Shown here: positions 4,880-60,555 of the stretch, in pieces
How positions within the stretch are numbered: the stretch's first letter is position 1
How the letters are laid out: the number at the start of each line of letters is the position of its first letter
Assembly (NCBI RefSeq): GCF_963921235.1
Contig: NC_086097.1
Span: forward strand, 34,350,001 to 34,414,000
Source of the DNA: Mobula hypostoma
Lineage: Eukaryota
Length of the DNA stretch: 64,000 bases
Reading direction: 5' to 3'
Notes under the pieces: generated by a model
Told to the model about the DNA's origin: nothing
What the model saw: only the letters and a program-made list of their open reading frames with translations
The model's database searches: none
Position numbers and translations under genes: made by a program

Positions 4880-5335
4880 AAACTGGGCAGCCTCCAACCT
4901 GATGGCATGAACATTGATTTCTCTAACTTCGGCTAATGCCCCACCTCCCCCTCGAACCCCATCAGTTATTTATTTATATACACACATTCTTTCTCTCTCT
5001 CTCCTTTTTCTCCCTCTGTCCCTCTGACTATACCCTTTGCCCATCCTCTGGACTTTCACCCCCCTCCCCCTTTTCCTTCTCCCTGGGCCTCCTGTCCCAT
5101 GATCCTCTCATATCCTTTTTGCTAATCACCTATCCAGCTCTTGGCTCCATCCTTCCCCCTCCTGTCTTCTCCTATCATTCTGGATCTCCCTCTCCCCCTC
5201 CTACTTTCAAATCTCTTACTAGCTCTTTCTTCTGTTAGTCCTGATGAAGGGTCTCAGCCCGAAATGTCAACTGTACCTTTTCCTAGAGATGCTGCCTGGC
5301 CTGCTGCGTTCACCAGCAACTTTGATGTGTATTGC
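4880..5335 (+). mobile_element. Penelope-like element 3' end (GIY-YIG C-terminus plus pLTR)
   Basis: Encodes LGSLQPDGMNIDFSNF, followed by a pyrimidine-rich UTR and the ctgatgaagggtctc-gcccgaaa...agatgctgcctggcctgctg repeat. Homologous to 40960-41607. Confidence 0.8.
5236..5273 (+). ncRNA. Minimal type-I hammerhead ribozyme motif (CpG-decayed copy)
   Basis: tagtc CTGATGA agggtctcagccc GAAA tgtc aactg. Both core boxes and stem II are intact; stems I and III carry substitutions. Confidence 0.65.
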
Positions 5336-5364
5336 TTTCCACCACCTTCTGTACCCTTTCCATT

Positions 5365-6050
5365 CCTGGCCATTGGCATTTCCATACCAGGCAACCAGTT
5401 AGGATACTCTCCACAATGCATCAAATTAAGTTTGTCGAAGTTTTTGGTGACCTGTCAAATCTATACAAACTTCCAAGAAAGTAAAGCCATTATCAAGCCT
5501 TCTTTGTGACGACACTTATGTGCTGTTCCCCGGACAGATCCTCAGTTATGTTATCATCAAGGAATTTAAAGCTATTGACTCTCTTTATTTCCATTCCCAC
5601 AATGAGGACTGGCTCTTGGACCTCCAGGTTCTTCCCCCTGTAGTCAATAATCAGCTGTTTTGGTTTGCTGATGTTGAGTGAGAGGCTGTTATTGTGGCAC
5701 CACTCAATCAGATTTTCAATCTCCCTCCTATGTGCTGATTTGTCACCACTTTTAATTTGGCCAACAATGGTGGTGTCAACAGCAAACTGAAGCTGCTCAC
5801 CCTTTCCAGCAACGGCCTCTCAATGAGGACTGGTCTGCGTTCTCTCAACTTTCCTCTCCTGAAGTCCACAATCATTTCCTTGGTCTTGCTGACGCTCAGT
5901 GCAGGCTTGTTGCTGCTACACCACTTAACCAGCTGATCTATCTCACTCCTGTACACCTCCTCACTGAAACGAGATTCTGCCAATAAAAGTGGTGTCATTG
6001 TGAATTTATAGGTGGCAATTGAGCTGTGCATAGCCACACAGTAACAGTCC
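5365..6050 (-). mobile_element. Rex1/Babar-type LINE RT fragments (two adjacent pieces)
   Basis: ORF 5708..6052 (YRSEIDQLVKWC...LSVSKTKEMIVDFRR); a second similar piece at 5365-5790. Confidence 0.7.
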
Positions 6051-6059
6051 AAGGACCCC

Positions 6060-6762
6060 AGGAATAATCAGTAAGAACTTGCATGCACGTTCAAATACAT
6101 ACAACACATGTGCTCTTTACTTTCAAGACTGCTTAATCTCATTTCCAGTACACTAGTGTAAAGGAGAACAAAATAATTGTTATTCCAGATATGATGCAGC
6201 ACAAATAAAAACACAATGATACAAAGAAGACAATAACAAAAAAAGAAACAAATATAAACACATAAGATACCATCTCAGGAACATCTGAGAGTGTGAGAGA
6301 GAGAGACAGAGTGAAACTAGGCACAAGAGTGTCTGTACATAAGGTAACTGACAGGGACTGATAAAGTAGTGGTGGTGTGAAGGGTTAGTGAGGTGTTGAA
6401 CAGCCTGTTCGCTTGGAGAAAGTAACTGTTTTTGACTTTGATGACCCTGGCGTGGATGCTACGTAGCCTCCTCCCTGATGGGAGTGGGACAGGCAGTCCA
6501 TGAGCAGGGTGGGTGGGATCCTTCATGACATTACTGGGCTTTTTCCAGCACCTTTCTCTGTACAGCACATCTCGTTGATGGCTGGTGCCAGTGATGCGTT
6601 GGGCAGTTTTGACTACCCGCTGTAGAATCTACCTGTCTGCCGCAGTGCAGTTTCTGTATCATGTAGTGATCAGTATGTTAGGCAGCTCTCTACTGCACAT
6701 CTGCAGAAGGTCATGAGTATTGATGTGCATAGTCCATCTCTCTTTGGCCTCCTCAGAAAGTA
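6060..6762 (-). mobile_element. Rex1/Babar-type LINE 3' part
   Basis: ORF 6317..6568 (MKDPTHPAHGL..PLPSGRRLRSI...KNSYF). Confidence 0.75.
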
Positions 6763-7559
6763 GTCACACTTAATCCCTGCTTATGCTCCTGCAAACTGTG
6801 GAAGCTATAGATGACGTAAGAAAGTCATATCATTCAACAAAACCTGCAGGAATCTTTCCTTGAGGCTGTCCATTTTGAAAATGATTCCCTTCCTCCTCCC
6901 AAAGACTTTCCCCACCACATCTCCTCACTGCCCCACCCCATTCCACCAGTACCACCACCTCCACCATCTCTATTCACGGTTCTGGGTTATCAAGCAGGTT
7001 ATCTGTGACAGAACGCATTCCAATTTTTTGTATGACATGGGTGCTAAGCACGTGCACCAGGAAAGCAGTCAACTATCACTGTTACTGTTCTTCCCTCATA
7101 CTGGATAGGTGGGAATTTGAAGGAATTCTCTTAGTTAATACATTAAAACACTAATCTGACAGCTTCATGGTCACCATTAGAGATAACAGATTCTCATTCC
7201 AGATATACTTAATCCTTTGATTTTAAGTTCCTCAGAAAACATGGTGGAATTTGATTAAAAGTATGGTTACAGGCTTCCCTGAGATCAGGACATCAACAAT
7301 AACAGGACTTTCTAGTTCCTTCAGACAGGCTAGCTGCTTTCATGAATGATGAGGGTTTCAATACTATTTTATTGCCTGAGTGTGTATACCTTGTGTTATC
7401 ATATCAGAGGATCTGCCCCGGAACTAGGATGTGATGTAAGTGCCATTAAAAAGAAAACATGGCAGCTCCTCTAATTTCTTAGATGGTTACACAGATTCAG
7501 TATGTCATCTAAAATTGTGATAAATTTCTATCCACGCTCAGTGAAGAGTGCCCTGACAG

Positions 7560-9030
7560 AATACATCATGGCCCAATACGGATACATCACTGCCCAAAAA
7601 CAGAAAAGCCCACAAAGGTGGCGGAGCAGGTAGTGTTGAGGAAACAGAGAGCCTGCAGAGAGACTTAGATAGTTTAGGGGAATGGGCAAAGAAGTGGTAA
7701 ATGAAATACAATGTTGGAAAGTATATGGTCATGCACTTTGGTGGAAGAAATATACAGGCAGACTATTATTTAGATGGGGAGAGAATTCAAAATGCAGAGA
7801 TGCAAAGGGACTTGGGAGTCCTTGTGCAGGATACCCTAAAGGTTAACCTCCAGGTTGAGTCGGTTGTGAAGAAGGCAAATGCAATGTTGGCATTCATTTC
7901 TAGAGGCATAGAATATGAGAGCAAGGATGTGATCTTGAGGCTTTATAAGGCATTCGTGAGACCATACTTGGAGTATTGTGTGCAGTTTTGGGCCCCTTAT
8001 TTTAGAAAGGATATACTGACATTGGAAAAGGTTTAGAGAAGATTCACGAGAATGATTCCAGGAATGAAAGGGTTACCGTATGAGGAAAGTCTGGCAGCTC
8101 TTGGGCTGTATTCCCTGAAGTTCAGGAGAATGAGGGGGGGATTTCATAGAAACATTCCAAATGTTAAAAGGCCTGAACAGATTAGATATGGCAAAGTTAT
8201 TTCCCATGGTAAGGAAGTCTAGGACAAGAGGGCAGGACTTCAGGATTGAAGGACAACCATTTAGGACAGAGATGCGGAGAAATTACTTTAGTCAGAGGGT
8301 GGTAAATCTGTGGAATTTGTTGCCACAAGCGGCTGTGGAGGCCAAGTCATTGGATGTATTTAAGGAAAAGATAGATAGGTTCTTGATTAGCCAGGGCATG
8401 AAAAGGTATGGGGAGAAGGCAGGGGAGTGGGGATGCCTGGAAGAATTGGATCAGCCCACGATTGAATGGCAGAGCAGACTTGATAGGCCAAATGGCCTAC
8501 TTCCTCTCCTATATCTTATGGTCTTAAAAGTGTTGAATACTGCCCAGTCTATCACAGGAAAAAGCTTTCCCCACCATTGAGCACATCTACAAGGATTGCT
8601 GCCACAAGAAAGCATCATCCGTCGTCAAGGACCCAAATCATCCAGGCCATGTTTTGTTCTCAATGCTGCCATCAGGAGGGATGTACAGGAGCCTCAGGTC
8701 CCACATCAGCAGGTTTAGGAACAGTTATTACCCTTCAACTATCAGGCTCCTGAGCCAGCATGGACAAGCTCACTCACCTTAACAGTGAATTGATTACACA
8801 ACCGAGGGACTCACTTTCAAGGACTCTACAACCCATATTCTCATTATTATTTATCTATTTATTCTTGTATCTCCAAAGATTGTCTTATTTTGCACATTGC
8901 TTGTTTGTCAGTACGTTAGTGTGTAGTTTTTCATTGATTCTATTGTATTGCTTTGTTTTACTGTGAATGCCTGCAAGAAAATGAATCTCAAGGTAACATT
9001 ATATATATTCTATAGTAAATTTACTTTGTG
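7560..9030 (+). mobile_element. Rex1/Babar-type LINE 3' part interrupted by a CR1 insertion
   Basis: gaaaagcccacaaag at about 7602-7616 resumes as aaagtgttgaatactgcccagtc at about 8528. Downstream are a KDPNHPGH..MLPSGGMYRS motif and 3' UTR. Confidence 0.6.
7615..8526 (+). mobile_element. 5'-truncated CR1 LINE
   Basis: ORFs 7701..8036 and 8161..8580 (QRDLGVLV...LYKAFVRPYLEYCVQFW; YFSQRVVNLWNLLP); tcttatggtctta tail. Confidence 0.9.
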
Positions 9031-11700: not shown

Positions 11701-12035
11701 TTCTTCCTTGGACCACTGCCCTCTCCTATCAGATTCCTTCTTCTTCAGCCCTATACTCATTCCACTTATCAACACCCAGCTTCTTACTTCACCCCACCAA
11801 TGCACCTTCCCCTTCATCTGGTCTCACCTGTCACCTGCCGGCAGGTACCCTTTCCCCTCTCCCACCTTATTCTGACTACTGACCCATTCCTTTCCAGTCT
11901 TGATGAAAGTCTTAGCCCAAAATGTCAACTGTTGTTTTTCCCCTCCATGGATGTTGCCTGACTTGCTAAGTTCCTTCAGAATTTTGTGTGTGTTGTTCAG
12001 GATTTCCAGCTTCTGCAGAATCTCCTGTGTTTATA
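11700..12035 (+). mobile_element. Penelope-like pLTR/3' end
   Basis: Pyrimidine-rich UTR, then ccagtcttgatgaaagtcttagcccaaaatgtcaactg and gatttccagcttctgcagaatctc. Confidence 0.75.
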
Positions 12036-12725: not shown

Positions 12726-13503
12726 GAGTGAGTAAAGTGAACCTTTTAAGCAAGTGTTGTTGTTGTTGTTGTTGTTCGTCCTTCGTAGTCGAAGATGACC
12801 ATGGCTTCAAAGTCAAATGGGAGATTGGTGGCTGTGGGTCCGGAGGTGACTGATGAGGCCAATCCGGGCCCTGAAGGCTCGCCCACATGTGGGACACAAG
12901 TGGGTGGGTGCTGTCGTGTCAGTGGATGCTGGGCTTGTACACAGCACGCTTTCGTTGCACCTCGATGATGCGCCTGACTTCAGCTGCACGGGCTCCTGTG
13001 GTGATCTTGCTGCGCCAAACTGGACGGTCGAGGGCAAGCGTCTCCCACGTGTTGATGTCGACACCCAGGCCTTTGAGGGACGCTTTCAGGCAGTCTTTAT
13101 ACCGTTTCTTCTGCCCCCCCGACTGAGCGCTTGCCCTAACACAGTTCTCCGTACAGCAGCTGTCTGGCATTCTGACCACATGTCCAGCCCACCTGGCTTG
13201 GGCTTTCAGCAGGAGGATGTAGCCCAGCTCGTTCCAGGATTTCCGTGTCGGGGACTTTGTCCTGCCACCTGATGTGGAGGAGTCCGCGGAGACAGCTCAG
13301 GTGAAAGTGGTTGAGCTGTTTGGCGTGTCTGCTGTAGACAGTCCAGGTCTCGCTGGCGTAAAGGAGGGTGGTAAGGACCACTGCACAATAGAACTTCAGC
13401 TTGGTGGTAAGGCTGAGTCCTCTCTGCTCCCAGACGTTCTCACGGAGTCTCCCAAAGGCGGCGCTGGCTTTGGCAATCCTGTTGTTGACCTCAGCGTCTA
13501 TGT

Positions 13504-14901
13504 TCACTGGCGAGAGAGTATGCTGCCCAGGTAGGTGAAGTTGTCGGCTGCCTGGAGGTTCTGGCCCTTCACCGTGATGCGCGGCTCCTGGTATGGCTTT
13601 CCTGGGGCAGGCTGGTACATAACTTCGGTCTTTTTGGTGCTGATAGTGAGACTGAAGTTGTCACAGGCTTGTGAGAAGCAGTCCATTTCACGCTGCATCT
13701 CCTGCTCTGTGCTGGCGTTGAGTGCGCAGTCATCAGCAAACAAGAAGTCTCTGATAACAGTCTCTCGCACCTTTGTAACTGCCTGCAGGTGCCTAAGGTT
13801 GAACAACCTGCCGTCAGTCCTGTACCTGACGTGGATTCCTTCTTCATAGTTACGGAAGGCATCTGTCAGCATGGCAGAGAATACCATACTGAACAGAGTT
13901 GGGGCAAGAACGCAGCCTTGTTTGACGCCATTTGTCACTAGGAAGGCCTCCGACTCGTCGCTGTCATCCAGAACTTTCACCATCATACCGTCGTGGAACT
14001 GCCAGACGATTGTGATGAACTTGCCAAACTTCTCCATGATCTTCCACAAACCTTCTCTGCTGACCGTATCGAAAGCCTTGGTTAGATCGACAAAGGTCAT
14101 GAAGAGGTCGCTGTGTTGCTCCTGGCATTTTTCCTGGAGTTGGCACGCAGCAAAATTCATGTCCGCGGTCCCATGCTCAGCACGGAAGCCGCACTGGCTT
14201 TCTGGGAGCAGACCTTGCTCAAGATGTTGGAGAAGGTGGTTGAGCAGGACACGGGCCAGAATCTTCCCCGCAATAGACAAGAGGGAGATGCCTCGGTGGT
14301 TGTCGCAAGACTGGGGGTTGCCTTTCCTCTTGTAGATGTGGACTATGCTGGCATCTTTCAGCTGTTGCGGGACCTGCCCCTTTTTCCACATGGACTGGAA
14401 GAGTACAGTCAGCTTTTGCATCATGACAGGGCCTCCTGCTTTGTATACCTCAGCAGGGATTGCATCAGGTCCTGGCACTTTGCCACAGGAGAGTTGCTTC
14501 ACTGCCTTCCTGACTTCATCTACTGTGGGGAGGGTGTCGAGGTTCTTGTTGATTTGTACCTGGAGCAGGCAGGCAATGGCCTCGTCGTTGATGTCGGCAG
14601 GGCGGTTAAGGACGTTGTTAAAGTGCTCAGCCCACCGATCCAGAATCTGCTTCTTTTCTGTCAGCAGCTGCTTCTCATCTGCGTTGAGGAGAGGTGAGGA
14701 GCCGGAGGACTGGGGTCCGTATACAGCCTTAAGCACATCGTAGAAGCGCTTTATGTCGTGGCTGTCTGCATAGCCCTGGATTTCATCGGCCTTCTTGCTG
14801 AACCAGCTGTCCTGCATCTCGCGAAGTTTTTTCTGCACCTTTCTTCTTGCGTTGGTAAAGGCATCTTTCTCGGCTAGCGACGTGGGGTCGTTCTGATGCA
14901 C
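13504..14901 (-). pseudogene. RTE reverse transcriptase, largest open segment (465 aa)
   Basis: Contains the RT motifs including LFADD. Bounded by a stop and a frameshift. Confidence 0.9.
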
Positions 14902-15510
14902 TCTTTAATGTTGATGTTTCTCCGTTAGTAGTGCCTGTATTTCTTCATCATTCTCATCGAACCAGACTTGGTTTCTTTGGGTTTCTGGTCCGAGATGTTC
15001 GAGGGCGGTAGTGTAGACAGCGTCTCTGAAGGCCGTCCACTGTTCCTCAACGCTGGTCCCGTCTTCCTGTGGTGTGTCTGGCAGTCTGCCTTCAAGGTCA
15101 TCGATGAATTCTTCTGAAACCCTGCTGCTTTTCAACTTAGAGACATTCAGTCTTTTTGCAGTCTTCTGCCCTTGGGGTCTTCTCATGGGCAGAATGCGAA
15201 GCCTGAACTTGGACACAATGAGGCGGTGGTCGGTCCAGCAGTCGGCACCACACATGGCTCTTGTCACTCTGACATCCATCCTGTCCCTCTTCCTGGTGAT
15301 GATGTAGTCAATCAGATGCCAGTGCTTCGAGCGTGGGTGCATCCATGACGTCTTCTTACGGGTGGGTAGGCGGAACAGGGTGTTGGTGATGACAAGGTCG
15401 TGTGTGGCACATGTCTTGAGGAGCAGAAGGCCGTTGCTGTTACACTTGCCAGTGCCGTGTCTTCCAATGATCCCTTCCCAGGTTTGGTAGTCTGTCCCTA
15501 CTCTGGCATT

Positions 15511-16353
15511 TGTTACGTACCCCGTAACTGGGTTGCCAAACCAGCAGAAATGGATCACTCAGTTGGAGTCTGGAGTACTAGAACTAAGAAAGTTTTATTA
15601 AAGAAATAAGCAACACAGTAATCGAAAGGATAATAAATACAACAGTTCAGCGATGATAAACACACATGTGCACAGAATTAAGATAACAGCATCAATCAAG
15701 CTCTATCGTTGTCTAGGGGTAAATGACCAAATTTCAAAGTGACTCAAAGTTCAGTTCTCAGTAATCGTTGCCATGGCGATGGACAACGTGGGGGAAGAGA
15801 GAGATAGAACAGGAACAACTGATCATTCAGAACGGCTTCACTCACAGACGGGCGAGATTGCTCACAAGCAACTTTTGGGCGGGTCCTTGGTGATGTCACC
15901 TGAGGTCGCCAACTGTGACCCCTCCTCCAGATGCGGTCAATCCTCTGCAGTGAACCCGGCACCCAGGCAAGGGCGGACACACACCGGGTTCCCGCTGATC
16001 GTACCTTTCCACCCTGGTCGTTGTCTGGTACTTCTCACCCACTCGTGAGAAGCGTACCGCTTCCAGGGTCTCGTTACCTCAGGTGGCGTGTGTCCCTGTC
16101 TTAGCGAACCTGTCCCTTTTTATCCCCCTGCTGGGGTATCGCCTGTCCATCACTTCAAACAGTTCAGGGTTCAAAGGGGGGAGCCGCTCCAGACAGCTCT
16201 CTCTCCCACATCCCTTCATTACACATCTCCAGACGCTGTTCCATTGTTCCTTATCTCTCCTTCCCCTGAGGGCAGGTGGCAGACCACTTGCTGATGTCAC
16301 TGATGCTAACCCAGGCCAGCAAACATCTTAATTTTATGTGTATTCTCGTCACA
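15511..16353 (-). mobile_element. Solo LTR (843 bp) inserted in the RTE endonuclease domain
   Basis: Termini tgttacg...cgtcaca (TG..CA imperfect inverted repeat). 4-bp TSD catt at 15507-15510 and 16354-16357. Removing it restores G-F-N-A-R-V-G-T-D. AATAAA on the minus strand near 15594-15599. Confidence 0.85.
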
Positions 16354-19338: not shown

Positions 19339-20477
19339 CAGGGGTCCCAAACCTTTTTTGCACCGCAGACCGGTTTAATATTGACAATATTCTTGTGGAC
19401 TGGCCGACCCGGGGGTGGGGGGGCGGTGGAGGTTGTTAATCACAACCGGAATATAGGTGATGGGTCAACTATAAGTCACTTATAAATGGCTAATACACTC
19501 AATTTCGTTTCTAAAGGGGTTTATCTAACAAAATATTAAACACACAGCGCATATTTTCCTCGCATGAATATAGTGATGTCAATTATAACAGTGGTTACCA
19601 ACACTCGGGCCGCGGACCGATACATTGCCGTGAGGGGTGCAGCGGTGGCCGGAATGCACCCAGCACACTTTTAAGTAAAAAACCAAAATAAACAAGCTAA
19701 TTGATTAGGTACTGCCAGGCACCTAATTAATTAGCTTGTTTATTTCGTTTTTTTTCTTAAGGATGTGCTGGGTGCGTTCTGACTACCACTGCACCGCTGC
19801 ATTCTTCGTGGCCTGGAGGTTGGGGACCACTAAATTATAAGTCGATAGCATCATAACATTTTAAGTAACGTTTGGATATTAAACACACAGCACATATTTT
19901 CCTCGATGAACATATAAAATCATTGCAACACACCAATATCGCTGAATCAGTGGGAGCCCTGAGCTTGTTTTCCTGCAACAAGACGGTCCTATCGAGGAGT
20001 GATGGGAGACACCGATACTCGAAGGGGGTTCTTTATGTCCAGTCTATTCTGAAATTTAGTTTTCGTTGCATTCATTGCAGAAAACTCCGCTTTGCAGAGA
20101 TACGATGTTGAAAATGGAAGCAATGCTTTCAGTGCTTTCGTGGCTATCTCAGGATATTCAGCCTTGACTTTGATCCAGATTGCCGGCAGAGATGTTATGT
20201 TAAACATACTTCTCAGCCCACCGTCATTTGCAAGCTCGAGGAGTTGATCTTTTTCCCACGCTGACATGGATGATTCACCAGAAACATTCACAAATGGGTC
20301 ACGGACCCACTCCTTTGCACGTCTTGGGTCATTTGCATCTTGGGTCACTGATGACCTCGCGTGCGTTCAAGTTCAACAGTGGGCGTGACAGGGAATGAAG
20401 AAAGGTGCAGCTGACTCATATCGTTTCCTCGCGGCCCGGTAGCACATGATTTGCAGCCCGGTGGTTGGAGACCACTG
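19339..20477 (-). mobile_element. Internally deleted hAT (Charlie/MER1-like) DNA transposon
   Basis: TIRs caggggtcccaaacc / ggttggagaccactg. 8-bp TSD ccctacaa (19331-19338) / ctctacaa (20478-20485). ORF 19989..20348 encodes the hAT C-terminal dimerisation region (WIKVKAEYPEIATKALKALLPFSTSYLC..FS). Confidence 0.9.
19589..19832. mobile_element. 244-bp hAT MITE with a long internal palindrome, nested in the hAT above
   Basis: TIRs cagtggttaccaac / gttggggaccacta. Perfect 8-bp TSD aattataa at 19581-19588 and 19833-19840. Inverted arms 19637-19710 and 19721-19794. Confidence 0.85.
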
Positions 20478-21459
20478 CTCTACAACCATTCCTCTATCTG
20501 TTCTGGCACTCCGGTTCCCATCCCCCTACAACCCTGCTTAACCCCCAACCCTCCACAGTGTGCAACACGAGCAAACCTTCCCTCTAGGATATTAGTCCCC
20601 CTCCAGTTCAGGAGCAAACTGTCCTTTCTGTACAAGTCCCACCTTCCCTGGAAGAGAGCCCAATGATCCAAAAATCAGAAGCCCTCCCTCCTGCACCATC
20701 CCCTTAGCCACATGCTAAACTGTATGATCTTCCCATTTCTGGCCTCACTAGCCCACATGCCACAGCTAGCAATCCTTAGAACACAAGCCAGGTGATCCTG
20801 TCCTTTAACTAAGCAGCTAACTCCCTGAACTCCCTTTGCAAGACCTCATCATCCCTCCTACGCATGCCATTGGTAATGAGGTGATCCATGACCTCTGGCT
20901 GCTTACCCTCCCACTTAAGAATGCCGTGGACTCAATCTGAGATATCCCAGATCCTGGCACCAAGGAGGGAAAGAAAACCCATTCAGTAATCTTGTCCTCA
21001 TCAACTCCTTTCTGTACCGCTAAACAACGATTCCCCTATGACCACAGCTCACCTCTTCTCCCCACTTCCCTTCTGAGGTACAGAGCCAGACTCAGTGCTA
21101 GAGACCTGACTACTGTGGCTTTCATCTGCGAGATCATCCACCCAACGGTATCTAAAGCAGTGTAGAGGGAAACTGCCACAGAGGTACTCTGCACTGGCTG
21201 TCTATCCCCTTTCCACCTCCTGACAGTCACCCAGTTACACGTGTCCTGCACCATGGCTGTAATTATCCCTCCCCCTCCCATATGTCCTATTGATCAACTC
21301 CTCAGCCTCCCAAATGATCCAGAGTTTATCTATCTTCAGCTCCATTTCCTTAATACGGTCTGAAAGAAGCTGGAAGCACTTCTCGCAGATGAAGTGGTTA
21401 GGGACACTGGAGGTCTCCCTGCCTTCGCACATCTCGCAAGAGGAGCATTCCACTATCCT

Positions 21460-21660
21460 CAGCAGGCCAGGTAGCATCTATGGAACAGAGTGAACAGCCG
21501 ACATTTCACCCCGAGACCCTTCCACCGTCCTGATGAAGGGTCTCAGCCCAAAATTTCGATTGTTTACTCTTTTCCATAGATGCTGACCTGCTGAGTTCTT
21601 CCAGCATTTTGTGTGTGTTGCTTTGGATTTCCAGCATCTGCAGATTTTCCTATGTTTGTG
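21460..21660 (+). mobile_element. Fold-back Penelope pLTR insertion
   Basis: Inverted pLTR piece followed by a sense pLTR with ctgatgaagggtctcagccc. 13-bp TSD attccactatcct / attccacaatcct at 21447-21459 and 21661-21673. Confidence 0.85.
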
Positions 21661-40090: not shown

Positions 40091-40139
40091 TCAATCTCCT
40101 CTATCCTCCACAAATGGCCATTATTCACCACACCAAGGG

Positions 40140-40959: not shown

Positions 40960-41607
40960 CACACTTCACCTGCGAATCTGCTGCTGTCATCTATTGTGTC
41001 CAGTGCTCCCGATACAGCCTCCTCTACATTGGTGAGACCCGTCATAAACTGAGGGGCCTGTTTCATCAAGCACCTTCAATCCATCCACCAACAGCAGAAC
41101 TTCCCGGTGTCCCAACATTGTAATTCCCATTCCCCTTCTGACATGTCAGTCTACGGCCTCCTCTTTTGCCACAATGAGGCCACCCTCAGGGTGGAAGAGC
41201 AACACCATATATTCCATCTGGGTAGCCTCCAACCTCATGGCATGAATATCAATTTCACCTTCCAGTTAAAAAAAATCCCTCCCCCTCCCCTCTTCTTGTA
41301 TTCCCTATTCTGGCATCTTATCTCTTCTCACCTGCCTATCACCTCTCCCTGGTGCCCCTCCTCCTTCCTTTTCTCCTGTGGTCCACTCTCCTCTCCTCTC
41401 AGATTCTTCATTTCCAGTCCTTTACCTTTCCCACCCATCTGGATTTGCCTGTCACTTTCTGTCTATCCTTCTTCCTCACACTCCTCCTTTTTATTCCCCC
41501 TTCCTTTCCAGTCCTGAACAAGGGTCTCGGCCCGAAACATGAACTGTTTGTTCATTTCCACGGATGCTGCCTGACCTGCTGATTTCCTCTAGCATTTTGT
41601 GTGTGTT
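40960..41607 (+). mobile_element. Penelope-like element: GIY-YIG endonuclease fragment plus pLTR
   Basis: FTCESAAVIYCVQCSRYSLLYIGETR...HIFHLGSLQPHGMN. TSD actccagatatg / acttcagatatg at 40948-40959 and 41608-41619, within an old CR1. Confidence 0.9.
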
Positions 41608-45100: not shown

Positions 45101-46737
45101 CAGTGCTTATAAAATGTATTCACACCCCCTTGGAAAATTTTCATGATTTATTATTTTACAACATTGAATCACAGTGGATTTAATTTGACTTTTTTCCCCA
45201 ATGATCAACAGAAAAAGACTCTTTCGTGTCAAAGTGAAAACAGACCTCTACAAAGTGATCTAAATTAATTACAAATATATATTTTAAAAATTGATTGTAT
45301 AAGCATTCATCCCCTTTGATATGACACACCAAATAATCACTGGTGCAGCCAATTGGGTTTAGAAGTCACATATTTAATTAAATGAAGATCTGTTTTTGGA
45401 GACCTGTGTGCAGCCAAGGTGTTTCAATCGACTGTAATAAAAATACACCTGTATCTGGAAGGTCCGTTTGTTGATGAGTCAGTATCCTGGCAAAAACTAC
45501 ACCATGAAGACAAAAGAACGCTCCAAGCAACTCCACAAAAAGGTTGCTGAAAAGCACAAATCAGGAGATGGGTAGAAGAAAATCTCCACATCACTGTATA
45601 TCCCTTGGAGTACAGTTAAGTCAATCATCAAGAAATGGAGAGAATATGGCACAGCTGTAAATCTGCCTAGAACAGGCCATCATCAAAAACTGAGTGACCG
45701 TGCAAGAAGGGGACTAGTGAGGGAGGCCACCAAGAGACCTATGACAACTCTGGAGGAGTTACAAGCTACAGTGGCTGAGATGGGAGAGACTGCACATACA
45801 ACAACTGTTGACCGGGTGTTTCATCAGTTGCAGCTTTACGGGAGAACGGCAAAGAGGAAGCCACTGTTGAAAAAATCTCACATGGTATCTCGGTTAGAGA
45901 TTCCCAGAAGGCATGTGGGAGACTCTGAAGTCAGCTGGAAGAAGATTCTATGGTCCAATGAAACCAAAATTGAGCTTTTTGGCTATCAGACTAAATGCTA
46001 TGTTTGGCAGAAGCCAAGCACCACACATTATCAAAAACATACCATCCCTACTGTGAAACATGGTGGTGGCAGCATCATGCTGTGGGGATGTTTCACTGCA
46101 ACAGACCCTGGAAGGCTTGTGAAGGTAGAGGGTAAAATGAAGGCAGCAAAATACAGGGAACTCCTGGAAGAAAGCCTGATGCAATCTGCAACAGGACTGT
46201 GACTTGAGAGAAGTTTTGTTTTCCAATAAGATAATAACCCCAAGCAGAAAGCCAAAACTACACAGGAATGGCTTAAAAACAACAAAGTTAATGTCCTGAC
46301 GTCGCCAAGTCAGAGTCCAGACTTCAGATGAGTTGAGAATTTATGGCTGGACTTTACAAGGGCTGTTCACTCAAAATCCCCATGCAATCTGACAGAACTT
46401 GAGTAGTTTTGTGAAGAAGAATGGGGAAAAATTGCAGTGTCCAGATGTGCAAAGCTGATAGAGACCTATCCACACAGAATTGCTGCCAAAGGTGCATCTA
46501 GTAAACATTGACTTGAAGGGGTGGCTACTTATACAATCAATTATTTTGTGTTTTATATTTGTAATTAATTTAGATCATTTTGTAGAGATCTGTTTTCACT
46601 TTGACACGAAAGAATCTTTTTCTGTTGATTTGTCTCAAAAAAGCCAAATAAAATCCACTGTGATTCAATGCTGTAAAATAATAAAACATGAAAACTTATG
46701 GAGGGTGGGGGGGTGTAAATAATTTATATAGGCACTG
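45101..46737 (+). mobile_element. Full-length Tc1 transposon (Passport-like), defective
   Basis: TA TSD at 45099-45100 and 46738-46739. Long TIRs of at least 180 bp beginning cagtgc. Transposase starts at 45504. Confidence 0.92.
45504..46512 (+). pseudogene. Tc1 DDE transposase pseudogene
   Basis: MKTKERSKQL...IKKWREYGT.VNLPRTG...REATKRPMTTLEELQ...WSNETKIELFG...PTVKHGGGSIMLWGCF...DNNPK...PSQSPD; several in-frame stops. Confidence 0.88.
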
Positions 46738-50329: not shown

Positions 50330-50493
50330 CTCTGACCTATCACCTTCTAGCTTGCCCATCTTCCCCTCTCTCCACCCCTTCATTCTGGTGTCTTCCCCCT
50401 TCCTTTTCACTCCTGATGAAGGGTCTTAGCCCGAAACATTGACTGTTATTTGCTTTCATTGATGCCACCTGATCTGATGAGTTCCTCCAGCAT
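50330..50493 (+). mobile_element. Penelope pLTR with hammerhead motif (50408-50445)
   Basis: cactc CTGATGA agggtcttagccc GAAA catt gactg. Confidence 0.75.
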
Positions 50494-51442
50494 TTTGTGT
50501 GTTAAACTGCACGAGGTAGATTTGAAACAGTCTTAACTGAGACCCTCTGGTTTTCACTTGACCAGTCTGTCATAGGAACTATTCTTAAGAAGAGGAGTTT
50601 GGATTTATTTACATGTACATTGAAACATGCCTCAATGCATTGTTTTTGCATCAATGACCAACATAGCCTGAGATGTGCTGGAGGCATCCCTCAGGTGTAG
50701 CTACACTTCCGGTACCAACAAAATGTGTTCCCAAGTTACTAATCCTAACTTGTATGTCTTTGCAATGTGGGAAGAAATCCACCCAGGCACAAACTCCTTA
50801 CTGACAGTGGCCAGAATGAACCCCAAACTTCAAACTGTCAGTGTTACTTTTACCATTGTGCTATTGTGCCTGATCTTGCCACTTGGGATCTAAGACGAGG
50901 CATCTGCCTGCATCGACACTCCTCTGCATTGAAAAGAATTCTACCACAATATAATGCAAATTGGTGTCTTGGGAGAAAGGGGCTAATGATAACAAAATGA
51001 AGGATGTCACACATTCAAAGTCCTTCTGCCAAAAGAAACAAATGCTGGGATATAAATGATCACTATTAATGGGTTTCAAGAGGAGAGACACACTACTTTC
51101 AAGTTCAAATTTCCATCTTCAGCCTTGGCCAAATTATTTTCCTTTTATCATTTGTAGTAAGTTTGGCAAAAGATTGTCAGAGTCTATTTCTTCACCATTT
51201 ATTGGAGTGCAATGGAACATTTTACGAGCCACATTCATTAAAATTACTTCAAAAATAAATAGCTACAAGCAATTGCTCCATAAAAGACATTGACCAATTT
51301 GTTTACAAATGCTGATTTACTGGTCTAAATGGATAAAGTCTCTCATCTGGCTAATTAATTAACAGGGTTGTCAATTACATTGAATTGAACAAGAGTTTGC
51401 CTTCTGTGTATCAGCACTCACAAGTGAATAGAAAATTCATTG

Positions 51443-51572
51443 CAACACACAGAAAATGCTGGAAGAACTCAGCAGGTCAGGCAGCAACTATGACTTGCCT
51501 GGCCTGTCAAGTTTCCCCAGCATTTCATATTTGTTGCTCTGGATTTCCAGCATCTGCTGGGAATCTCTTGAG
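51443..51572. mobile_element. Short fold-back Penelope pLTR insertion
   Basis: aaaatgctggaagaactcagcaggtcaggc followed by its inverse. Possible TSD tagaaaattcatt / tagaaaatgtatt. Confidence 0.7.
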
Positions 51573-52104
51573 TTTAGAAAATGTATTATTTTCATTGTTA
51601 CACCTCGGTGCTAACATAATAGTGAGAACTAATAACGACTGTGGAACTGAATCAGATCTAATCAGATGTCACTCACTAAAACTCAAATAATTTACATTCA
51701 GACTGTTTTAGTAAAGACATATTGAAACTCAATGAAAAAGAAACAGAGAGTTTCTTTTAAACTTTCACTAGGTACTACATTCACTCAACCACACCTACCG
51801 TTGTTAAAAGGGAAAACACGATGTTCTCAAAAAAAGCACATGGACAGAATATGACACATAGATGATCTCAGCCAGAAAAGAGGTAAAAGTGCTGAAAAGA
51901 TTACTTGCCTTTGGAGTCATTGGGCTCAAGGAAAGAATTAGAAATACTTCAGTGTTTGCACCCTTGGTTACTCTCCAGTTGCCAAGGAGGAAAAAGGAAG
52001 AAGGAAAGGTTCCAGGTCGTGGTAAAGATGAAGGGAGATACAGAGAAAGGGATCAAGCCCCACTGTCTGTGGGTCCTATCTCTATAAGAAATTATCTGTC
52101 AATC

Positions 52105-52230
52105 ATAAACACAGGAGATTCTACAGATGCTGGAAATCTTGAGCAACACACACAAAATGCTGGTGGAACTCAGCAGGCTAGGCAGCTTCTACAGAGTGGA
52201 ATAAACAGTCAACGTTTCAGGCCGAGACCT
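52105..52230 (-). mobile_element. Penelope pLTR fragment
   Basis: Reverse complement of the repeat, ending aacagtcaacgtttcaggccgagacc. Possible ctgtcaa TSD. Confidence 0.75.
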
Positions 52231-53117
52231 GCTGTCAACGCTGAGTTTTAATGATAGGTTCCTGTGCTCATTCTTTGCATATCTCTGACATGGGTGGAGG
52301 GTTTTAGTGATGGGATCTCTGGAAAAAAACATGATTTGCTTATTTTTTTTTAAAATGACTGAAAATCTAATCGTGTACTAGTTTACAGTTAGTTGTCTTC
52401 CAACACAGTAGCTGGAAATGACCTTTCCATTCAGTTCTGGAAGTATCAGACTCTATTTGCCCAGATTTCAAACATTTAGATGTGTTGAATTCAACATATT
52501 TTTATTTCTTCCAGTCAGGTCCCTTTCCAAGTATAATTGGCAAAGGAAGTGTTGAATGCAAATTTCTTTCATGTTCTGGCCAATTTGTTCTTCATGGGTT
52601 TGGAAACAGAAATATCCTGAAGTATTAATTATGAACCGAAATTGAACTGTTTCCCAATTAAAGGGAAACATTCCTTTTATCATAATGTGATGATTGCCTG
52701 GGAATAATTTAAATTCATACGTTTTCAGAATATAAAATTATGTCTAGTGTGCTAAATGGAAAAGTTGGTATTAAAGCATCATTTTTATTAATGATGCTTG
52801 TTCATTCTTCTGAAGCAAGGTATAGTAAGCAATGAGCATGTAGTAATTCCCACCTGGGATCAGATCTTTAATATCATTCTTGACAGTTAACACTTACATT
52901 TTTTCCATTCTGTGTCATTTTTTACCTCAGCATCTGAATCAAACAGGCTCCAATTTTTCCATGCAAAAATGTCACTTATTGTTCTCACAACAAAATGTTT
53001 GAACCTTCAGTCAGTAAAGGGTCAAATCAAGTGCTAAAAATAGACCACAGCAAGATGAATTAATGGTTGCTTCCCATTCATACCAAGTGGAAAGGAGGAG
53101 ATCACAATTCTTTCAAA

Positions 53118-53345
53118 GCAACACAGAATGCTGGAGGACCCCAGCAGACCAGGCAGCCTCAATGAAAAGAGTGAACCGTCAACGTTTCGGGCCAAGGCTC
53201 TTCAGTCCTGCTGTCCTGATGAAGGGTCTTGGCCCGAAACTTCGACTGTTTACTCTTTTCCATAGATGCTGCCTGGTCTGCTGAGTTCCTCCAGCATTTT
53301 GTGGGTGTTGCTTTGGATTTCCAGCAACTGCATATTTCCTCATGC
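53118..53345 (+). mobile_element. Fold-back Penelope pLTR insertion
   Basis: Perfect 16-bp TSD tcacaattctttcaaa at 53102-53117 and 53346-53361; inverted plus sense pLTR. Confidence 0.9.
53211..53248 (+). ncRNA. Minimal type-I hammerhead ribozyme motif
   Basis: ctgtc CTGATGA agggtcttggccc GAAA c TTC gactg. Core boxes, stem II and an NUH triplet (UUC) are present. Confidence 0.65.
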
Positions 53346-54648: not shown

Positions 54649-54804
54649 TTGCAGAAGCACAGACCCAGATTAAATCTGGACCTCAAATGCTGTCTGGGTA
54701 GAGAGAGAGAGAAAGAGAAAGAGAAAGATTTTGGACTAAAGGGGGATCAAGAATTACAGAGATGAAACAGGAAGGCCCAGGCCAAAAGCAAGACTTATCA
54801 CATG

Positions 54805-54930
54805 TAATGCACACAAAATGCTGGAAGAACTCAGCAGGCCAAGCAGCAACTGTGGAACTGCCTGGCCTGCTGAGTTCCTCCAGCACTTTGTGTGAGTTGC
54901 TTGGATTTCCAACATCTGCAGATTCTCTCC
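54805..54930. mobile_element. Short fold-back Penelope pLTR insertion
   Basis: cacacaaaatgctggaagaactcagcaggcca...tggcctgctgagttcctccagcactttgtgtg inverted arms. Confidence 0.8.
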
Positions 54931-56354
54931 TTAAGATTATTGCGTGATTAGGTAGCCTGCATTTCTTTTCATTACATTTTTATTTTAGCTTTGATAACAT
55001 CTTCCTACATCTTTTCTGCAGCCTTTCTAGTCCTCTGACATCCACCGTCAATGTTGAACCAGGTTTGCATATGAGCTGTGCCCTACCCAATGTCCCAGTA
55101 TGGTCCATTTACGTAAACCCATCATCCCTATTGGGGCATTGGCTACCAACAGCAGCTCGCCGGAGTCCTCTGTCCTCCTGGGCCCTGTTGTTTCTACTTT
55201 CACCACTTGACTTTATATGTCTTCTAGGCAAAGATGCTCTCTTATGGATCTTCTGTAGCTCTGGGCTGTCACTGGATGGGCTTGCTAGCCCCATGCCCAG
55301 CCATCCTCTTTTCCCAGCCAGGCTTGCGACTGTTCATGGTCCTCTTTCTCTTATATTCCATGCATGGCCAATAAATGAAAGTGTTTCTTCTGCCTTGTTA
55401 GCCACCGCAGGTACCTAGTCTGTTACATTCAGAAGCTGTGGACCAGCAGCCAAGATCCTTCCTATACCTCGCTGCTCAATATCTTAGTATTTACTGTCTA
55501 CTTTCTACACCTATCTCACCAGCTTGTTGATAACCACAGCAGTCTTCCTCAATATCAGCTACACTGTCAACTTTCTTATCATTTAGCAAAATTATTATGA
55601 TGTTCCCTACATTTTAATCCAAATTGTTGACACATACTACCAAAGGCACTCACACTGGGCTCCACAGTTCTCTGCAACATACAACCTTCAAGTCACTTGA
55701 GCTGCTGTTGACCATCATGATTTTTGATGTTGGGTTCAACTCACCACTTTCCCTTGTTCCTCTAGGAACTATAACGTACCTGTAAATGGGGTACTGGAGA
55801 CTTGAACTATGATACTCCCTGAGCGCTGAATTCAATCAGAAATTGAAAACCTCTTGAATCAAATACATTATAGCAGCAGGCACTGCTCTCTAAGTATCAT
55901 ACTGCTTCATAAATACTCACAGGTGAATACTTGTGAAACAGTCATGGCTTATTAAGGTCTGATGAAAAGTTTAAGCCAAGATGTTAATTCCTTTTCTCTC
56001 CCCATAGATACTGCATGACTTGCTGAGGTTTTCCAACATTTTTGGATCTAATTCCAGGCTCAGGAAGTAGTGGTGAACTTAGGACTTTGTATGGGAGTTC
56101 TTCAGGCAGAGATTCCAGTTCAGATCTACTTGACGTGGGCTCAGGTAAACTCAGAGTTGTCTGATTGCATGGACATAACCGGAGGATTGGTGACAATAAG
56201 TTCTGTTCCAATGCCAAACCCTGCACTTGATACTGTTGTCAAGTTACTATTGAAAGGGCACACTATTGTACAGTTTCTAGCTTGTTAGAACTGGCTCCAC
56301 CAAGGCATGTGGTCACAGCTTACTATAGCAATTGCCCTGCCCGCAACTAATCAC

Positions 56355-56765: not shown

Positions 56766-56949
56766 TGTTGCTGATACTGTTTGACAGTCTAACTGCAGGA
56801 AGTAAACTGCTGACAAAAGACCTTTATCTCCCGATGATGATTTCCATATAATGGGACTGCAAACGCAACTGTCTAGTCTCCGCGTGATAACGAAGTAGAA
56901 CAAAGTTCTCATCTGTACTGCAGTCCCATCAATAAAGCACAAAAGTGTG

Positions 56950-58309: not shown

Positions 58310-59715
58310 TCAGATCATCAGAGCAGAAGTAGATCATTCAACCTCTGAAGCATATACTGTCATTCAGTAAGATCTAGGCTGATCGTCTGACAATTACACC
58401 ATTTTCCTGTCCCCTGTCTCTGAAATGCAGCAATGTCTCAGTTTCTGAATGTTATCAATGACAGAGCCTCTCCAGCCTTTTGGGGCTGAGAAGTCCAAAG
58501 ACACATCACCCTCTGATGTGTCAAATTCTCCTTGTGTGACTCCAACTAGCTTATTCCTTATTCTGCGGCTGTAAAACCCATGGCTCCAAAACTCTGGTCA
58601 AGGGAAAACATCCCCCCTGTACCTTTTCAAGAACTCAAAGAACTTTGTACTTCAATAAGGCCTCCTGTTATTCTTCTAAGGTCCAGACAATATGGGCCTA
58701 TTGCAGAACTGGCCTACTCATTCCTTCCTGGTATGACAGGCTCACCACCCCAGGAACAAATTTCATGAATCTTTGGCATGCTCCCCCTTTGCCAAGTGAA
58801 TCCTTTTTTTTTGGGTAAGCTTAGAAAAACTGCACACAGCTTCAACTGCACCATAACTTCAGTTATGGTCTTTTTTTTAAACTGTTCCCATGGTCTGCTC
58901 TTTATCAAATTATGGTATTGCTTTAAGACTTTTCACTGCTGTAACTATAGGTTATAATTATGTGGTCTTGTCAGTGTTAGTCTTTGGTTTGTCTTGTTTT
59001 ATTTTGTGATATCACTCTGGAGGAACATTGTATCATTTCTTAATGCATGCATGCATTTCTAAATGACAATAAACGAGGACTGAGTGTCCTCATAATCTAA
59101 TCGAATTGTGATAAGACAACTTTACTCTTGTACTCAAATCCTCTGGCAATAAAGGACAGTATGCCATTTGCCTTCCCAACTGCCTGCTGCCCCTGCATAT
59201 TAGCTTCCAGTGCCTAATACACAATGGCACTCAATGCTTTCTCATCTGTCACGAGCTAAAAAAGGTATTTGGCATTTCTTTGTTTTTTTAACTGTAGCGG
59301 ATAAACTCACACTTTTCCACGTTGAATTAGATCTGCTACATAGTTGTCCATTCGTGCACCTCTTTACACATCCTCTTAAGTCTCCTTGTATCTTCAGCAG
59401 TACTGAAGTTCCCACTTAGCTTTGTGAGTGGTTGAGGCCCAAGCACCATTTGCTACAGTATCTAGCCTGTCAATCTGTGAAGGGCCCATCTATTCCTACC
59501 CCTTTTTTATCTGTAGACTAGCTTTCAACGCACTCTACAATTTCACTCCAATTCCATGTGCTCTAAGCTTTTTCACCAGCCTCCTGAATGACACTTATCA
59601 AAATCCAAGTACATTACCCTGACTGCATCCCCTCCCCGTCATCAACTTGAACATGTGGATCCTCAAGGAACTCCAGTAGTTCAAACATAATTTCCTTTTC
59701 ATAAACCTGTCCTGC
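58310..59715 (-). mobile_element. Old degenerate CR1, interrupted by a family A copy
   Basis: CR1-like 3' UTR at 58310-58560 and RT remnants at 59105-59715. Confidence 0.5.
58868..59103 (+). mobile_element. Family A, 5'-truncated copy
   Basis: Matches about 18510-18724, including the gaggactgagtgtcctc hairpin and taatctaat tail. Confidence 0.75.
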
Positions 59716-59726
59716 TCAAGATTAAA

Positions 59727-59855
59727 GACGAGAGATTCTGCAGACACTGCAGTCCTGATGAAGGCTCTTGGCCCAAAACATTATCGCTTTGTTCCTCTCC
59801 ACAGACGCTACCTGACTTGTTGAGTTTCTTCAGTTTGTTTGTGTGTGTTTCTCAA
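59727..59855 (+). mobile_element. Penelope pLTR with degenerate hammerhead motif
   Basis: cagtcctgatgaaggctcttggcccaaaac at 59750-59779. Confidence 0.7.
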
Positions 59856-60389
59856 ACTTATTTTTATTCTCAACATATTTTGATGTTCTATTTGTTTTAT
59901 AGGTGCAAAAGGTTGGATTAATATCCAGTTAAGACCACAGCACTTGTGGTTCAGAACAACTATTATAAAAGGCAAAGTTAGGTTAGAAATTCACTCTCTA
60001 TCCAAAACAACTATTGTGGTTATCTGTCTATAACACATAATGTTTGATATTTAACTCAATTCTTTACAATGACACTAAATATAGAACTAAATTTCAGGCT
60101 CTGCACAGCATTAAAGCCAGAATTAAAGCTCCGAGACAGCTTCTTTCTACAAACCATTAGATTTTTAAATTCACACACCAGTACATTGCAACGGAATCAT
60201 AATGCAAAGATTTTTACTCCCTCATGTTATGGGATGGCTGTAAGATTTTAAATAAATTCTATTTAATTGTATCTTAAATTCTATTTAATTCCATGAGCAT
60301 CAGATTTATTGTGACTATTTTGTCCCACAATTGTGATCCATTTCTGCTCCTAAAATCCATGGAATTCACAATAACTGCAACTGCAAGAG

Positions 60390-60555
60390 GATCTCAACAG
60401 ACCAGGCAGCATCTATGGAAAAGATTACAGTCGACGTTTTGGGCCAAGACCCTTGGCCGTGGTAAATGGTCTGTGGCCAAAACGTCGACTGTATTCTTTT
60501 CCGTAGATGCTGCCTGGCCTGCTGAGTTCCTCCAGCATTTTGTTTGTGTTGCTTC
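60390..60555. mobile_element. Fold-back Penelope pLTR insertion
   Basis: ccaggcagcatctatggaaaaga..acagtcgacgtttt is paired with aaaacgtcgactgt..tcttttccgtagatgctgcctgg. Confidence 0.85.

What the first reader, a model, noticed from the sequence alone, without database searches (positions are those of the whole stretch)
5236..60491. Dispersed minimal hammerhead ribozyme family in Penelope-like repeats
Seen: a roughly 38-nt motif recurs at 5236-5273, about 11895-11931, 21525-21562, 41509-41546, 50408-50445, 53211-53248, about 55965-55990 and 59750-59787. 3' halves occur at 60428-60454 (minus), 60479-60491, about 52205-52228 (minus) and about 53177-53200 (minus). By-eye consensus: CAGTC-CTGATGA-A-GGGTCTC(A/G)GCCC-GAAA-C-GTC^GACTG. 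This gives stem I (CAGTC/GACTG), the CUGAUGA box, one extra A, stem II (GGG/CCC), GAAA, and a stem III reduced to the palindrome ACGT ahead of a GUC cleavage triplet. Established: minimal type-I hammerheads with a palindromic stem III occur in pLTRs of Penelope-like elements and are thought to cleave as dimers. Inference: the genome carries very many such motifs. No single copy here equals the consensus, and many differences are CpG-type transitions, so individual copies may be inactive.
Basis: partly seen in the sequence, partly recalled or inferred. Interest (0 to 1): 0.72.

Follow-up and report, generated by a model that had tools for sequence, protein, structure and literature searches.

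The report
Minimal hammerheads of a Penelope retroelement
The scattered motifs are real but ordinary: they are decayed end-pieces of a very abundant Penelope-type jumping gene, whose terminal repeat carries a tiny RNA motif predicted to cut itself as a pair (a known feature of such elements), and the ends of its copies suggest that its RNA likely starts at this motif and is mostly copied uncut.

Summary
Confirmed, but a known kind. All 12 listed places hold the motif or its 3' half; a profile finds 20 pieces in the window, 0 in the reversed control. None of the 8 full-length window copies keeps a complete core, so all are predicted inactive.

The motif sits in both pseudo-LTRs of a full-length Penelope-like element with an RT + Cys-linker + GIY-YIG frame, likely Neptune-type (L093). 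It matches the published minimal hammerhead (PMC4209133) and is conserved across subfamilies (35/38) while flanks drift to 54-76%.

Young copies start at the motif's 5' edge (20 of 43), rarely at the cut site, about 25-30 nt behind an A/T-rich block. The RNA likely begins there and is mostly copied uncut. An A6C core-variant subfamily left at least 4,190 copies. Cleavage was not tested. The scan has noted this family and the 5'-edge pattern many times, in this genome and others.

The parts
4883..5335 (+). 5'-truncated Penelope-like element: last 17 codons of the GIY-YIG endonuclease (4880-4930), 3' untranslated part and pLTR
   Evidence: 86.6% identical over 449 nt to the 3' end of full-length element L093; tblastn with P0001 E=5e-05
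5236..5273 (+). Minimal hammerhead copy; both core boxes and GUC kept, stem III palindrome broken, stem I 4/5
11895..12032 (+). Decayed hammerhead (11895-11931, 1-nt deletion, G12 lost) and downstream pLTR part
21458..21657 (.). Head-to-head fold-back: minus arm 21458-21522, plus copy with hammerhead 21525-21562 (G12 lost, stem III broken)
40962..41259 (+). Frameshifted remnant of the GIY-YIG endonuclease C-terminus (residues 938-1039 of P0001)
   Evidence: tblastn E=1.6e-30; 140,680 first-look candidates in the genome
41509..41546 (+). Decayed hammerhead of the older subfamily with A at core position 7, about 250 nt behind the endonuclease remnant
50408..50445 (+). Decayed hammerhead copy; core boxes kept, stem III broken
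51433..51557 (.). Fold-back stub of the segment 3' of the hammerhead (motif itself absent)
52101..52229 (-). pLTR stub with the 3' part of the motif
53114..53340 (.). Head-to-head fold-back turning at the 5' edge of the motif: minus arm 53114-53204, plus copy with hammerhead 53211-53248
54796..54927 (.). Fold-back stub of the segment 3' of the hammerhead (motif absent)
55955..56043 (+). Heavily decayed copy (motif about 55955-55990)
59750..59856 (+). Decayed copy starting at the motif's 5' edge (hammerhead 59750-59787; stem I 1/5)
60379..60560 (.). Head-to-head fold-back of two 3' halves (minus 60379-60454, plus 60461-60560); CUGANGA box absent from both
63638..63715 (+). Downstream-only pLTR stub (similar stubs at 22690-22766 and 45021-45065)

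Best explanation
These motifs are the minimal type-I hammerhead sequences in the pseudo-LTR of a very abundant Penelope-like retroelement (likely Neptune-type), left as decayed, 5'-truncated and fold-back insertions that are predicted inactive, while in intact elements the motif likely marks the start of the RNA and is predicted to cut only slowly, as a dimer. Shown: the element (pLTR-ORF-pLTR, motifs 3,511 nt apart on one strand), the copy numbers, conservation of the motif across subfamilies, and the pile-up of copy 5' ends at the motif's 5' edge. Inferred: (1) Transcription starts at or just before the 5' strand of stem I, behind a TATA-like A/T block. (2) The element's reverse transcriptase starts inside the RNA, about 60 or 95 nt behind the cut site (two 3' ends, the known 'tail'). 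It runs back through the uncut motif and either runs off the RNA's 5' end, giving 100-135-nt stubs that often fold back through the motif's own complementary strands, or continues into the ORF when it started in the 3' pLTR. (3) Alone, the motif folds stems I and II but traps its core. Two copies pair through the ACGU palindrome, so the 5' and 3' motifs of one transcript could cut out a unit-length RNA that may circularise and give more-than-unit copies such as L093. This is a minority route.
For: Element: L093 has direct 240-nt pLTRs (98.75% alike), motifs at 4088 and 7599, and a 1,041-codon stop-to-stop frame with DKG, YIDD, CX4CX2C and VIY...YIG motifs. 24 of 30 loci picked by the endonuclease alone have the motif 145-310 nt downstream on the same strand. 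20 of 20 long-ORF loci have it about 300 nt behind the endonuclease end, and 10 of 20 also have an inverted copy upstream. Copy number: 88,531 intact cores vs 35 control; 118 copies and 0 control in 100 evenly spaced 10-kb samples. Selection on master copies: young vs three older subfamily majorities 35/38 in the motif, 54-63% upstream, 63-76% downstream. The differences among the N7=U, N7=C and N7=A majorities fall on free position 7, on G-C to G.U changes at stem ends and, in the oldest group, on one uncorrected CpG decay. Ends: 20 of 43 young copies (in 15 loci) begin at -12..+9 of the motif start, 6 in the 288 nt upstream. Genome-wide, 8,600 of 52,761 break just before the core against 467 of 25,104 around the cut site; of 30 of the latter, 3 start exactly at the cut and about 24 are inverted junctions. 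A/T block at -31..-24 in three subfamilies (14, 7 and 21 copies). Monomer fold. Literature: low cleavage even as dimers (PMC4209133); internal RT start, tail, and unprocessed RNA as main template in an anole element (PMC11167929).
Against: No cleavage, transcript start or circle was observed; all RNA steps rest on DNA ends and on other elements. The A/T block of the young family is not a textbook TATA box, and the D. virilis Penelope promoter is reported as internal and TATA-less (PMC2377424). No reliable extra G (cap mark) stands before the start in the 100 listed young junctions (by eye). About 13 of the 20 clustered ends are fold-back arms, so they are not independent and may reflect cDNA snap-back. 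The stems show no double compensatory change across subfamilies, so pairing itself is not proven to be what is conserved. The commonest young form has G10.1.U11.1 in place of the conserved G-C, and an A6C subfamily spread. Pfam RT and GIY-YIG hits are below their curated cut-offs. Only 1 of 20 long loci has a direct 5' pLTR.
Confidence: 0.7

Rival explanations
1. Efficient cut-and-circularise model: nearly all transcripts are cut by dimeric hammerheads and ligated into unit circles, which regenerate an intact motif and are the normal template; the pile-up of ends at the motif's 5' edge comes from stalling or snap-back of the cDNA, not from an RNA start.
For: Proposed in PMC4209133 (discussion read). 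L093 is more than one unit long and crosses the motif twice. Fold-backs dominate junctions near the motif. A local bump of ends at the cut site exists (about a quarter of the 100 rows, by eye).
Against: About 7 of the 20 clustered ends join unrelated flanks without an inverted arm. A circle has no end at the motif's 5' edge. Ends around the cut site are about 9 times rarer than ends before the core, and most are explained by microhomology between the two stem I strands. In the anole element, core mutants did not affect insertion in vitro (PMC11167929).
Confidence: 0.15
2. The motif is kept for a non-catalytic job (initiator and downstream promoter element, or an RNA handle for the element's protein), and cleavage is vestigial in this lineage.
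For: An A6C core variant left at least 4,190 near-perfect copies, with endonuclease remnants, as one branch; A6C strongly lowers Mg2+-dependent cleavage in other hammerheads (PMC7151607, results read). The most abundant young form weakens the base of stem II. The 5' strand of stem I fits an initiator-type YYANWYY pattern (pattern recalled). Naiad elements thrive without canonical hammerheads (PMC8557442).
Against: All other core positions, both stems and the ACGU palindrome are kept across subfamilies, and variation falls on N7, the one free core position. A6C is a side branch in the tree, not the ancestor of the young family (midpoint root, supports not printed).
Confidence: 0.12
3. The copies are a separate non-autonomous family (SINE or retrozyme) that borrows the Penelope machinery.
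For: Most copies lack coding sequence and many are 100-135 nt. Animal retrozymes are described as derivatives of Penelope-like elements (bioRxiv 10.64898/2026.07.22.740005).
Against: Copies are nested 5' truncations of the autonomous element with a continuous length spread up to 3.4 kb. No tandem array of motif-bearing units was seen in the window or among the 110 sampled copies, whereas that paper defines retrozymes by tandem units.
Confidence: 0.03

Closest known systems
Minimal hammerheads (min-HHR) of metazoan Penelope-like elements (Cervera and De la Pena 2014, PMC4209133; parts 1-2 of 4 read, supplements not seen)
   Same: Type-I topology, stem I of 4-5 bp, one extra base between 9 and 10.1, palindromic 15.2-16.2 with no loop 3, place in pLTRs, mostly single dispersed copies, pairs on opposite strands
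   Different: Stem II is 4 bp here (7-8 bp in Schistosoma). 88,531 intact cores against about 4,000 (coelacanth) and 9,000 (Xenopus tropicalis) reported there, by a different search. The dominant young form has G.U at 10.1-11.1. An A6C subfamily is not mentioned in the parts read.
EN+ Penelope-like elements of the Neptune/Nematis type (Craig et al. 2021, PMC8557442; passages read)
   Same: Single RT + C-terminal GIY-YIG frame, CX2-5CxxC linker, DKG motif, partial tandems, inverted 5'-truncated copy, optional 30-40-nt tail
   Different: No tree against named reference elements was possible, so Neptune versus Nematis is not settled. The exact GxKF/Y motif was not matched (GLTF stands at the likely place).
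PAc, Poseidon element of Anolis carolinensis (Frangieh et al. 2024, PMC11167929; parts 1-2 of 4 read)
   Same: Hammerhead in the pLTR; two 3' ends about 35 nt apart; copies carry the uncut motif
   Different: PAc is Penelope/Poseidon clade and its ORF starts inside the hammerhead; here the likely start codon lies about 170 nt behind the motif start.
Animal non-LTR retrozymes (bioRxiv 10.64898/2026.07.22.740005; parts 1-2 of 5 read)
   Same: Type-I hammerhead, Penelope origin
   Different: Retrozymes are tandem non-coding units; these are dispersed truncations and fold-backs of a coding element.

Membership tests
Minimal type-I hammerhead (min-HHR) | CUGANGA and GAAA core boxes | tested here: met
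   88,531 genome matches vs 35 control; CUGANGA in three of four subfamily majorities, A6C in the fourth, GAAA in all. Both boxes together in 3 of 6 ungapped window copies.
Minimal type-I hammerhead (min-HHR) | Stems I and II pair; ends meet in stem I | tested here: met
   MFE of two natural intact copies forms both stems (-12.7 and -11.0 kcal/mol); descriptor finds 26 hits in 1 Mb, 0 reversed.
Minimal type-I hammerhead (min-HHR) | Palindromic 15.2-16.2, extra base after A9, NUH triplet | tested here: met
   ACGU, extra A and GUC in intact copies; lost in the window's full copies (0 of 6 keep the palindrome).
Minimal type-I hammerhead (min-HHR) | Conserved G10.1-C11.1 pair | tested here: inconclusive
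   Met in older subfamilies; G.U (or a shifted A-U register, predicted at 2% or less) in the 52,761-copy young form.
Minimal type-I hammerhead (min-HHR) | Compensatory changes in the stems | tested here: inconclusive
   Only one-sided G-C to G.U changes between subfamilies; too little variation.
Minimal type-I hammerhead (min-HHR) | Self-cleavage as a dimer | not testable with these tools
   Needs an in vitro assay; the sequencing runs offered were contigs only.
Rfam hammerhead families | Score at or above a family's gathering threshold | tested here: not met
   No hammerhead hit in the window at gathering score or E<=10; the window copies are decayed and lack stem III; intact loci were not scanned.
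EN+ Penelope-like element | One ORF with RT and C-terminal GIY-YIG endonuclease | tested here: met
   P0001: RVT_1 E=4e-05, GIY-YIG E=3e-04, both under curated cut-offs; DKG, YIDD, VIY...YIG motifs; 793 relatives among 7,995 candidates.
EN+ Penelope-like element | pLTRs in direct or inverted arrangement, 5' truncation, 30-40-nt tail | tested here: met
   L093 direct pLTRs; 10 of 20 loci with inverted copies; two 3' ends at 4186-4187 and 4222-4224 of L093.
Neptune/Nematis clades | CX2-5CxxC linker between RT and endonuclease | tested here: met
   CX4CX2C at residue 909 of P0001; definition from PMC8557442.
Neptune clade | RT phylogeny with named reference elements | not tested
   No named reference sequences were returned by the tools.
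Non-LTR retrozyme | Tandem non-coding units each with a hammerhead | tested here: not met
   No such array in the window or in the 1-Mb sample listing.

The most novel reading that the evidence does not exclude
In this lineage the hammerhead is the capped front end of the element's RNA: its first stem strand doubles as the transcription initiator. Cutting acts as a rare switch (decapping and circle formation) that can be turned down by G.U or A6C changes without stopping transposition, so the genome holds three natural activity variants with tens of thousands of dated insertions, enough to test directly what Penelope hammerheads are for.
Probability: 0.35. Interest if true: 0.55.

Novelty: new member of a known kind. 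Interest (0 to 1): 0.27.

Why it matters
The kind is published: minimal hammerheads in pLTRs of fish, amphibian and reptile Penelope-like elements. What this genome adds is scale (about ten times the largest vertebrate count in PMC4209133, by a different search), a near-intact young element, and natural core variants. The role of these ribozymes is still called unclear in the papers read (PMC8557442, PMC11167929). The copy-end map argues for uncut templates starting at the motif, and it names the exact bases to check by 5'-end sequencing and the three variants to assay. The same pattern has already been noted many times by this scan, so this window adds little new.

Tried and rejected
Rfam scans of the window: no hammerhead family at either threshold.

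RNA evidence: no RNA holder listed. The 8 layings (6 different runs) were contigs of unproven kind, which cannot show starts, ends or strand; they only repeated the genomic copy ends.

Splice acceptor idea: a pyrimidine tract plus AG lies about 15-20 nt behind the motif in all subfamilies, but no joint into it appears among the listed joints (15 of 158 shown; 7). Left open.

Cut-site footprints: rejected as a main signal (467 of 25,104; 3 of 30 exact, 5 if a preceding T is not read as CpG decay; mostly inverted junctions).

Cap-derived G: suggestive among old copies (6 G vs 1 A, by eye) but not among young ones (9 G, 5 of them from an inverted arm, vs 5 A; by eye). Not claimed.

Dimer folding: ViennaRNA cannot represent the active dimer; its best two-strand fold is a different, strand-swapped duplex, so it is no test.

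Other hammerhead families with different stems: 25 of 26 descriptor hits in 1 Mb belong to this family by eye.

Extrapolation from the 1-Mb sample is rough: one anchor gave 19 per Mb against 7.2 genome-wide, because copies come in inverted pairs.

Lunse et al. (PMC5785218) is not held; only its title was seen, in the reference list of PMC6765202. Searches for a printed link between transcript start and the hammerhead found 3 papers holding the terms (one listed, neither read for this point) and 0 papers. PMC3846280 describes a putative TATA and Inr in a rotifer pLTR, with no mention of the hammerhead in the passages read. Supplements of all papers were not read and may already list cartilaginous-fish motifs.
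Full report
Observation. All 12 listed places hold the motif or its 3' half. A profile built from 30 genomic copies finds 20 pieces in the window and none in the reversed window. The window is repeat-rich animal DNA with LINE and Tc1 remnants, from contig C1 of a 3.48-Gb genome. The closest named relatives of the element's protein are from a bamboo shark (71% and 68% identity), so the host is likely a cartilaginous fish (inference). Of the 6 ungapped full copies, 5 keep CUGANGA, 4 GAAA, 1 the GUC triplet and none the stem III palindrome; 18 of 32 differences are CpG-type. The two gapped copies lack G12. A hammerhead descriptor finds nothing complete in the window, and Rfam finds no hammerhead. 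The window copies are therefore predicted inactive.

Genome-wide numbers. The core CUGANGA-N13-GAAACGUC occurs 88,531 times, control 35. In 100 evenly spaced 10-kb stretches there are 118 copies within 10 substitutions (control 0), 195 hits to the segment behind the motif (control 0) and 29 intact cores. That suggests roughly 4 x 10^5 recognisable motifs; the figure is rough because copies cluster in inverted pairs.

What carries it. Window 40962-41259 and 4880-4930 encode the end of a GIY-YIG endonuclease upstream of the copies at 41509 and 5236. Of 30 loci picked by that peptide alone (one is the window itself), 24 have the motif 145-310 nt downstream on the same strand. A search with the RT part led to 20 long-frame loci. 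All have the motif about 300 nt behind the endonuclease end, 10 have an inverted copy upstream, and 1 (L093) is full-length: pLTRs at 3945-4184 and 7456-7695 (98.75% alike), motifs at 4088 and 7599, and a 1,041-codon stop-to-stop frame. Pfam gives RVT_1 (E 4e-05) and GIY-YIG (E 3e-04), both under their cut-offs. DKG, YIDD, a CX4CX2C linker and VIY...YIG are present; an exact GxKF is not. By PMC8557442 (passages) the linker marks the Neptune and Nematis clades, and the partial tandems, inverted copies and 30-40-nt tail are typical. No tree with named references was made.

The motif against the published one. PMC4209133 (parts 1-2 of 4) defines the minimal hammerhead by a short stem I, an extra base after A9, G10.1-C11.1 and a palindromic 15.2-16.2. 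It reports the motif in Xena, Poseidon and Neptune elements of fishes, with about 4,000 copies in coelacanth and 9,000 in Xenopus tropicalis, no monomer activity and low dimer activity. Intact copies here fit. Two natural copies fold stems I and II and trap the core by pairing the UGAN box with the cleavage strand. Stem II is 4 bp, not 3.

Subfamilies. A tree of 55 copies with endonuclease remnants separates a young group, an N7=U group, an N7=A group and an A6C branch inside the N7=U group (midpoint root, supports not printed). Majorities of 10, 6, 23 and 9 copies (7 left out) are 34-36/38 identical in the motif. The young group matches the others at 35/38 in the motif, 54-63% upstream, 63-76% downstream and 92-95% in the last codons. 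Copies differ from their own majority by 3.8%, 12%, 16.5% and 13.5%. So the motif was conserved in the active lineage about as strongly as coding sequence. Against a simple story: there is no double compensatory change, the young form (52,761 exact 22-mers) has U at 11.1, and the A6C form has 4,190 matches, control 0, with endonuclease remnants in 9 of 30 loci. A6C lowers Mg2+-dependent cleavage and favours Mn2+ in two other hammerheads (PMC7151607, abstract and results).

Where copies end. Of 44 young copies in the sample (1 cut by a sample edge and dropped), 20 of 43, in 15 loci, begin at -12..+9 of the motif start; 5 begin further 3', 6 in the 288 nt upstream and 12 beyond. About 13 of the 20 are fold-back arms and about 7 join unrelated DNA (by eye). 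Genome-wide, 8,600 of 52,761 break in the 11 nt before the core (a few listed rows are indel variants, not breaks), against 467 of 25,104 in the 10 nt around the cut site. Among the latter there is a local bump at the cut (about a quarter of 100 rows, by eye), but of 30 examined 3 start exactly there and about 24 are inverted junctions by a loose test. These are explainable by the two stem I strands re-pairing in the cDNA. In 42 of 110 copies that keep their upstream part, an A/T-rich block lies at -31..-24 in all three groups, although the surrounding sequence differs. The idea of looking for it came from scan note e1-8639351. The 3' ends fall at two places about 36 nt apart.

Mechanism. The most likely reading (0.7) is that the RNA begins at the motif, the element's enzyme starts copying inside the RNA behind the motif, as shown for the anole element (PMC11167929, parts 1-2 of 4), and mostly copies it uncut. 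Run-off at the RNA start gives the stubs and fold-backs seen in this window. Dimer cleavage between the 5' and 3' motifs, with possible circle formation (PMC4209133; PMC6765202, passages), would be a minority route that could explain more-than-unit copies like L093. All RNA steps are inferred. The D. virilis promoter is reported as internal and TATA-less (PMC2377424, passages), while a rotifer pLTR has a putative TATA and Inr (PMC3846280, passages). Rivals are efficient circularisation with snap-back ends (0.15), a non-catalytic role (0.12) and a separate retrozyme family (0.03; bioRxiv 10.64898/2026.07.22.740005, parts 1-2 of 5 and passages). Sequencing runs gave contigs only and say nothing on expression.

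Verdict. Real, correctly read, and a new member of a known kind. The scan holds 2,576 notes with these words in at least 71 genomes and 1,838 fitting notes in this genome, several with the same 5'-edge reading; these are unchecked notes and are not counted as support. Interest 0.27.

Noticed in passing
G000, e.g. L273-L302: A whole older subfamily carries A6C in the hammerhead core (CUGCYGA), at least 4,190 near-perfect copies, with endonuclease remnants and its own A/T block upstream; none lies in this window.
   Followed up: partly
L093:4126-4141 and 3' of most window copies: A pyrimidine tract ending in AG followed by AUG lies about 15-20 nt behind the motif in most copies of all subfamilies (it looks like a splice acceptor before a short upstream frame); no spliced joint was seen in the listed contig joints.
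   Followed up: partly
L132:8089 and L122:8523 (oriented positions): A small subfamily with a different stem II loop shows GUU rather than GUC at the cut site in all three sampled copies.
   Followed up: no
window 54796-54927 and 51433-51557: Fold-back hairpins made only of the segment behind the hammerhead; they give weak, spurious Rfam hairpin hits.
   Followed up: partly
window 37434-38284 and 39236-40096: Large inverted repeat of a LINE-type RT remnant (arms 86-94% complementary, about 950 nt apart).
   Followed up: no
window 12919-15558 (minus): Nearly complete LINE remnant with endonuclease-like and RT frames (RVT_1 E=1.5e-29), broken into several frames.
   Followed up: no
window 45204-46629: Tc1/mariner-type transposase remnant (45576-46202) between 76-nt inverted repeats that are 96% complementary.
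   Followed up: no
window 19643-19788: Long near-perfect palindrome (weak MIR9563 hit under the gathering score), next to a transposase-like remnant at 19989-20366.
   Followed up: no
window 30271-30328 (minus) and 32611-32669 (plus): tRNA-like matches just under Rfam's threshold, likely heads of tRNA-derived SINEs.
   Followed up: no
L079:1-1674 and L080:400-2295 (oriented as): Long frames that look like NACHT-type immune receptor genes (label recalled from the P-loop pattern), each beside a Penelope insertion with inverted pLTRs on small contigs.
   Followed up: no
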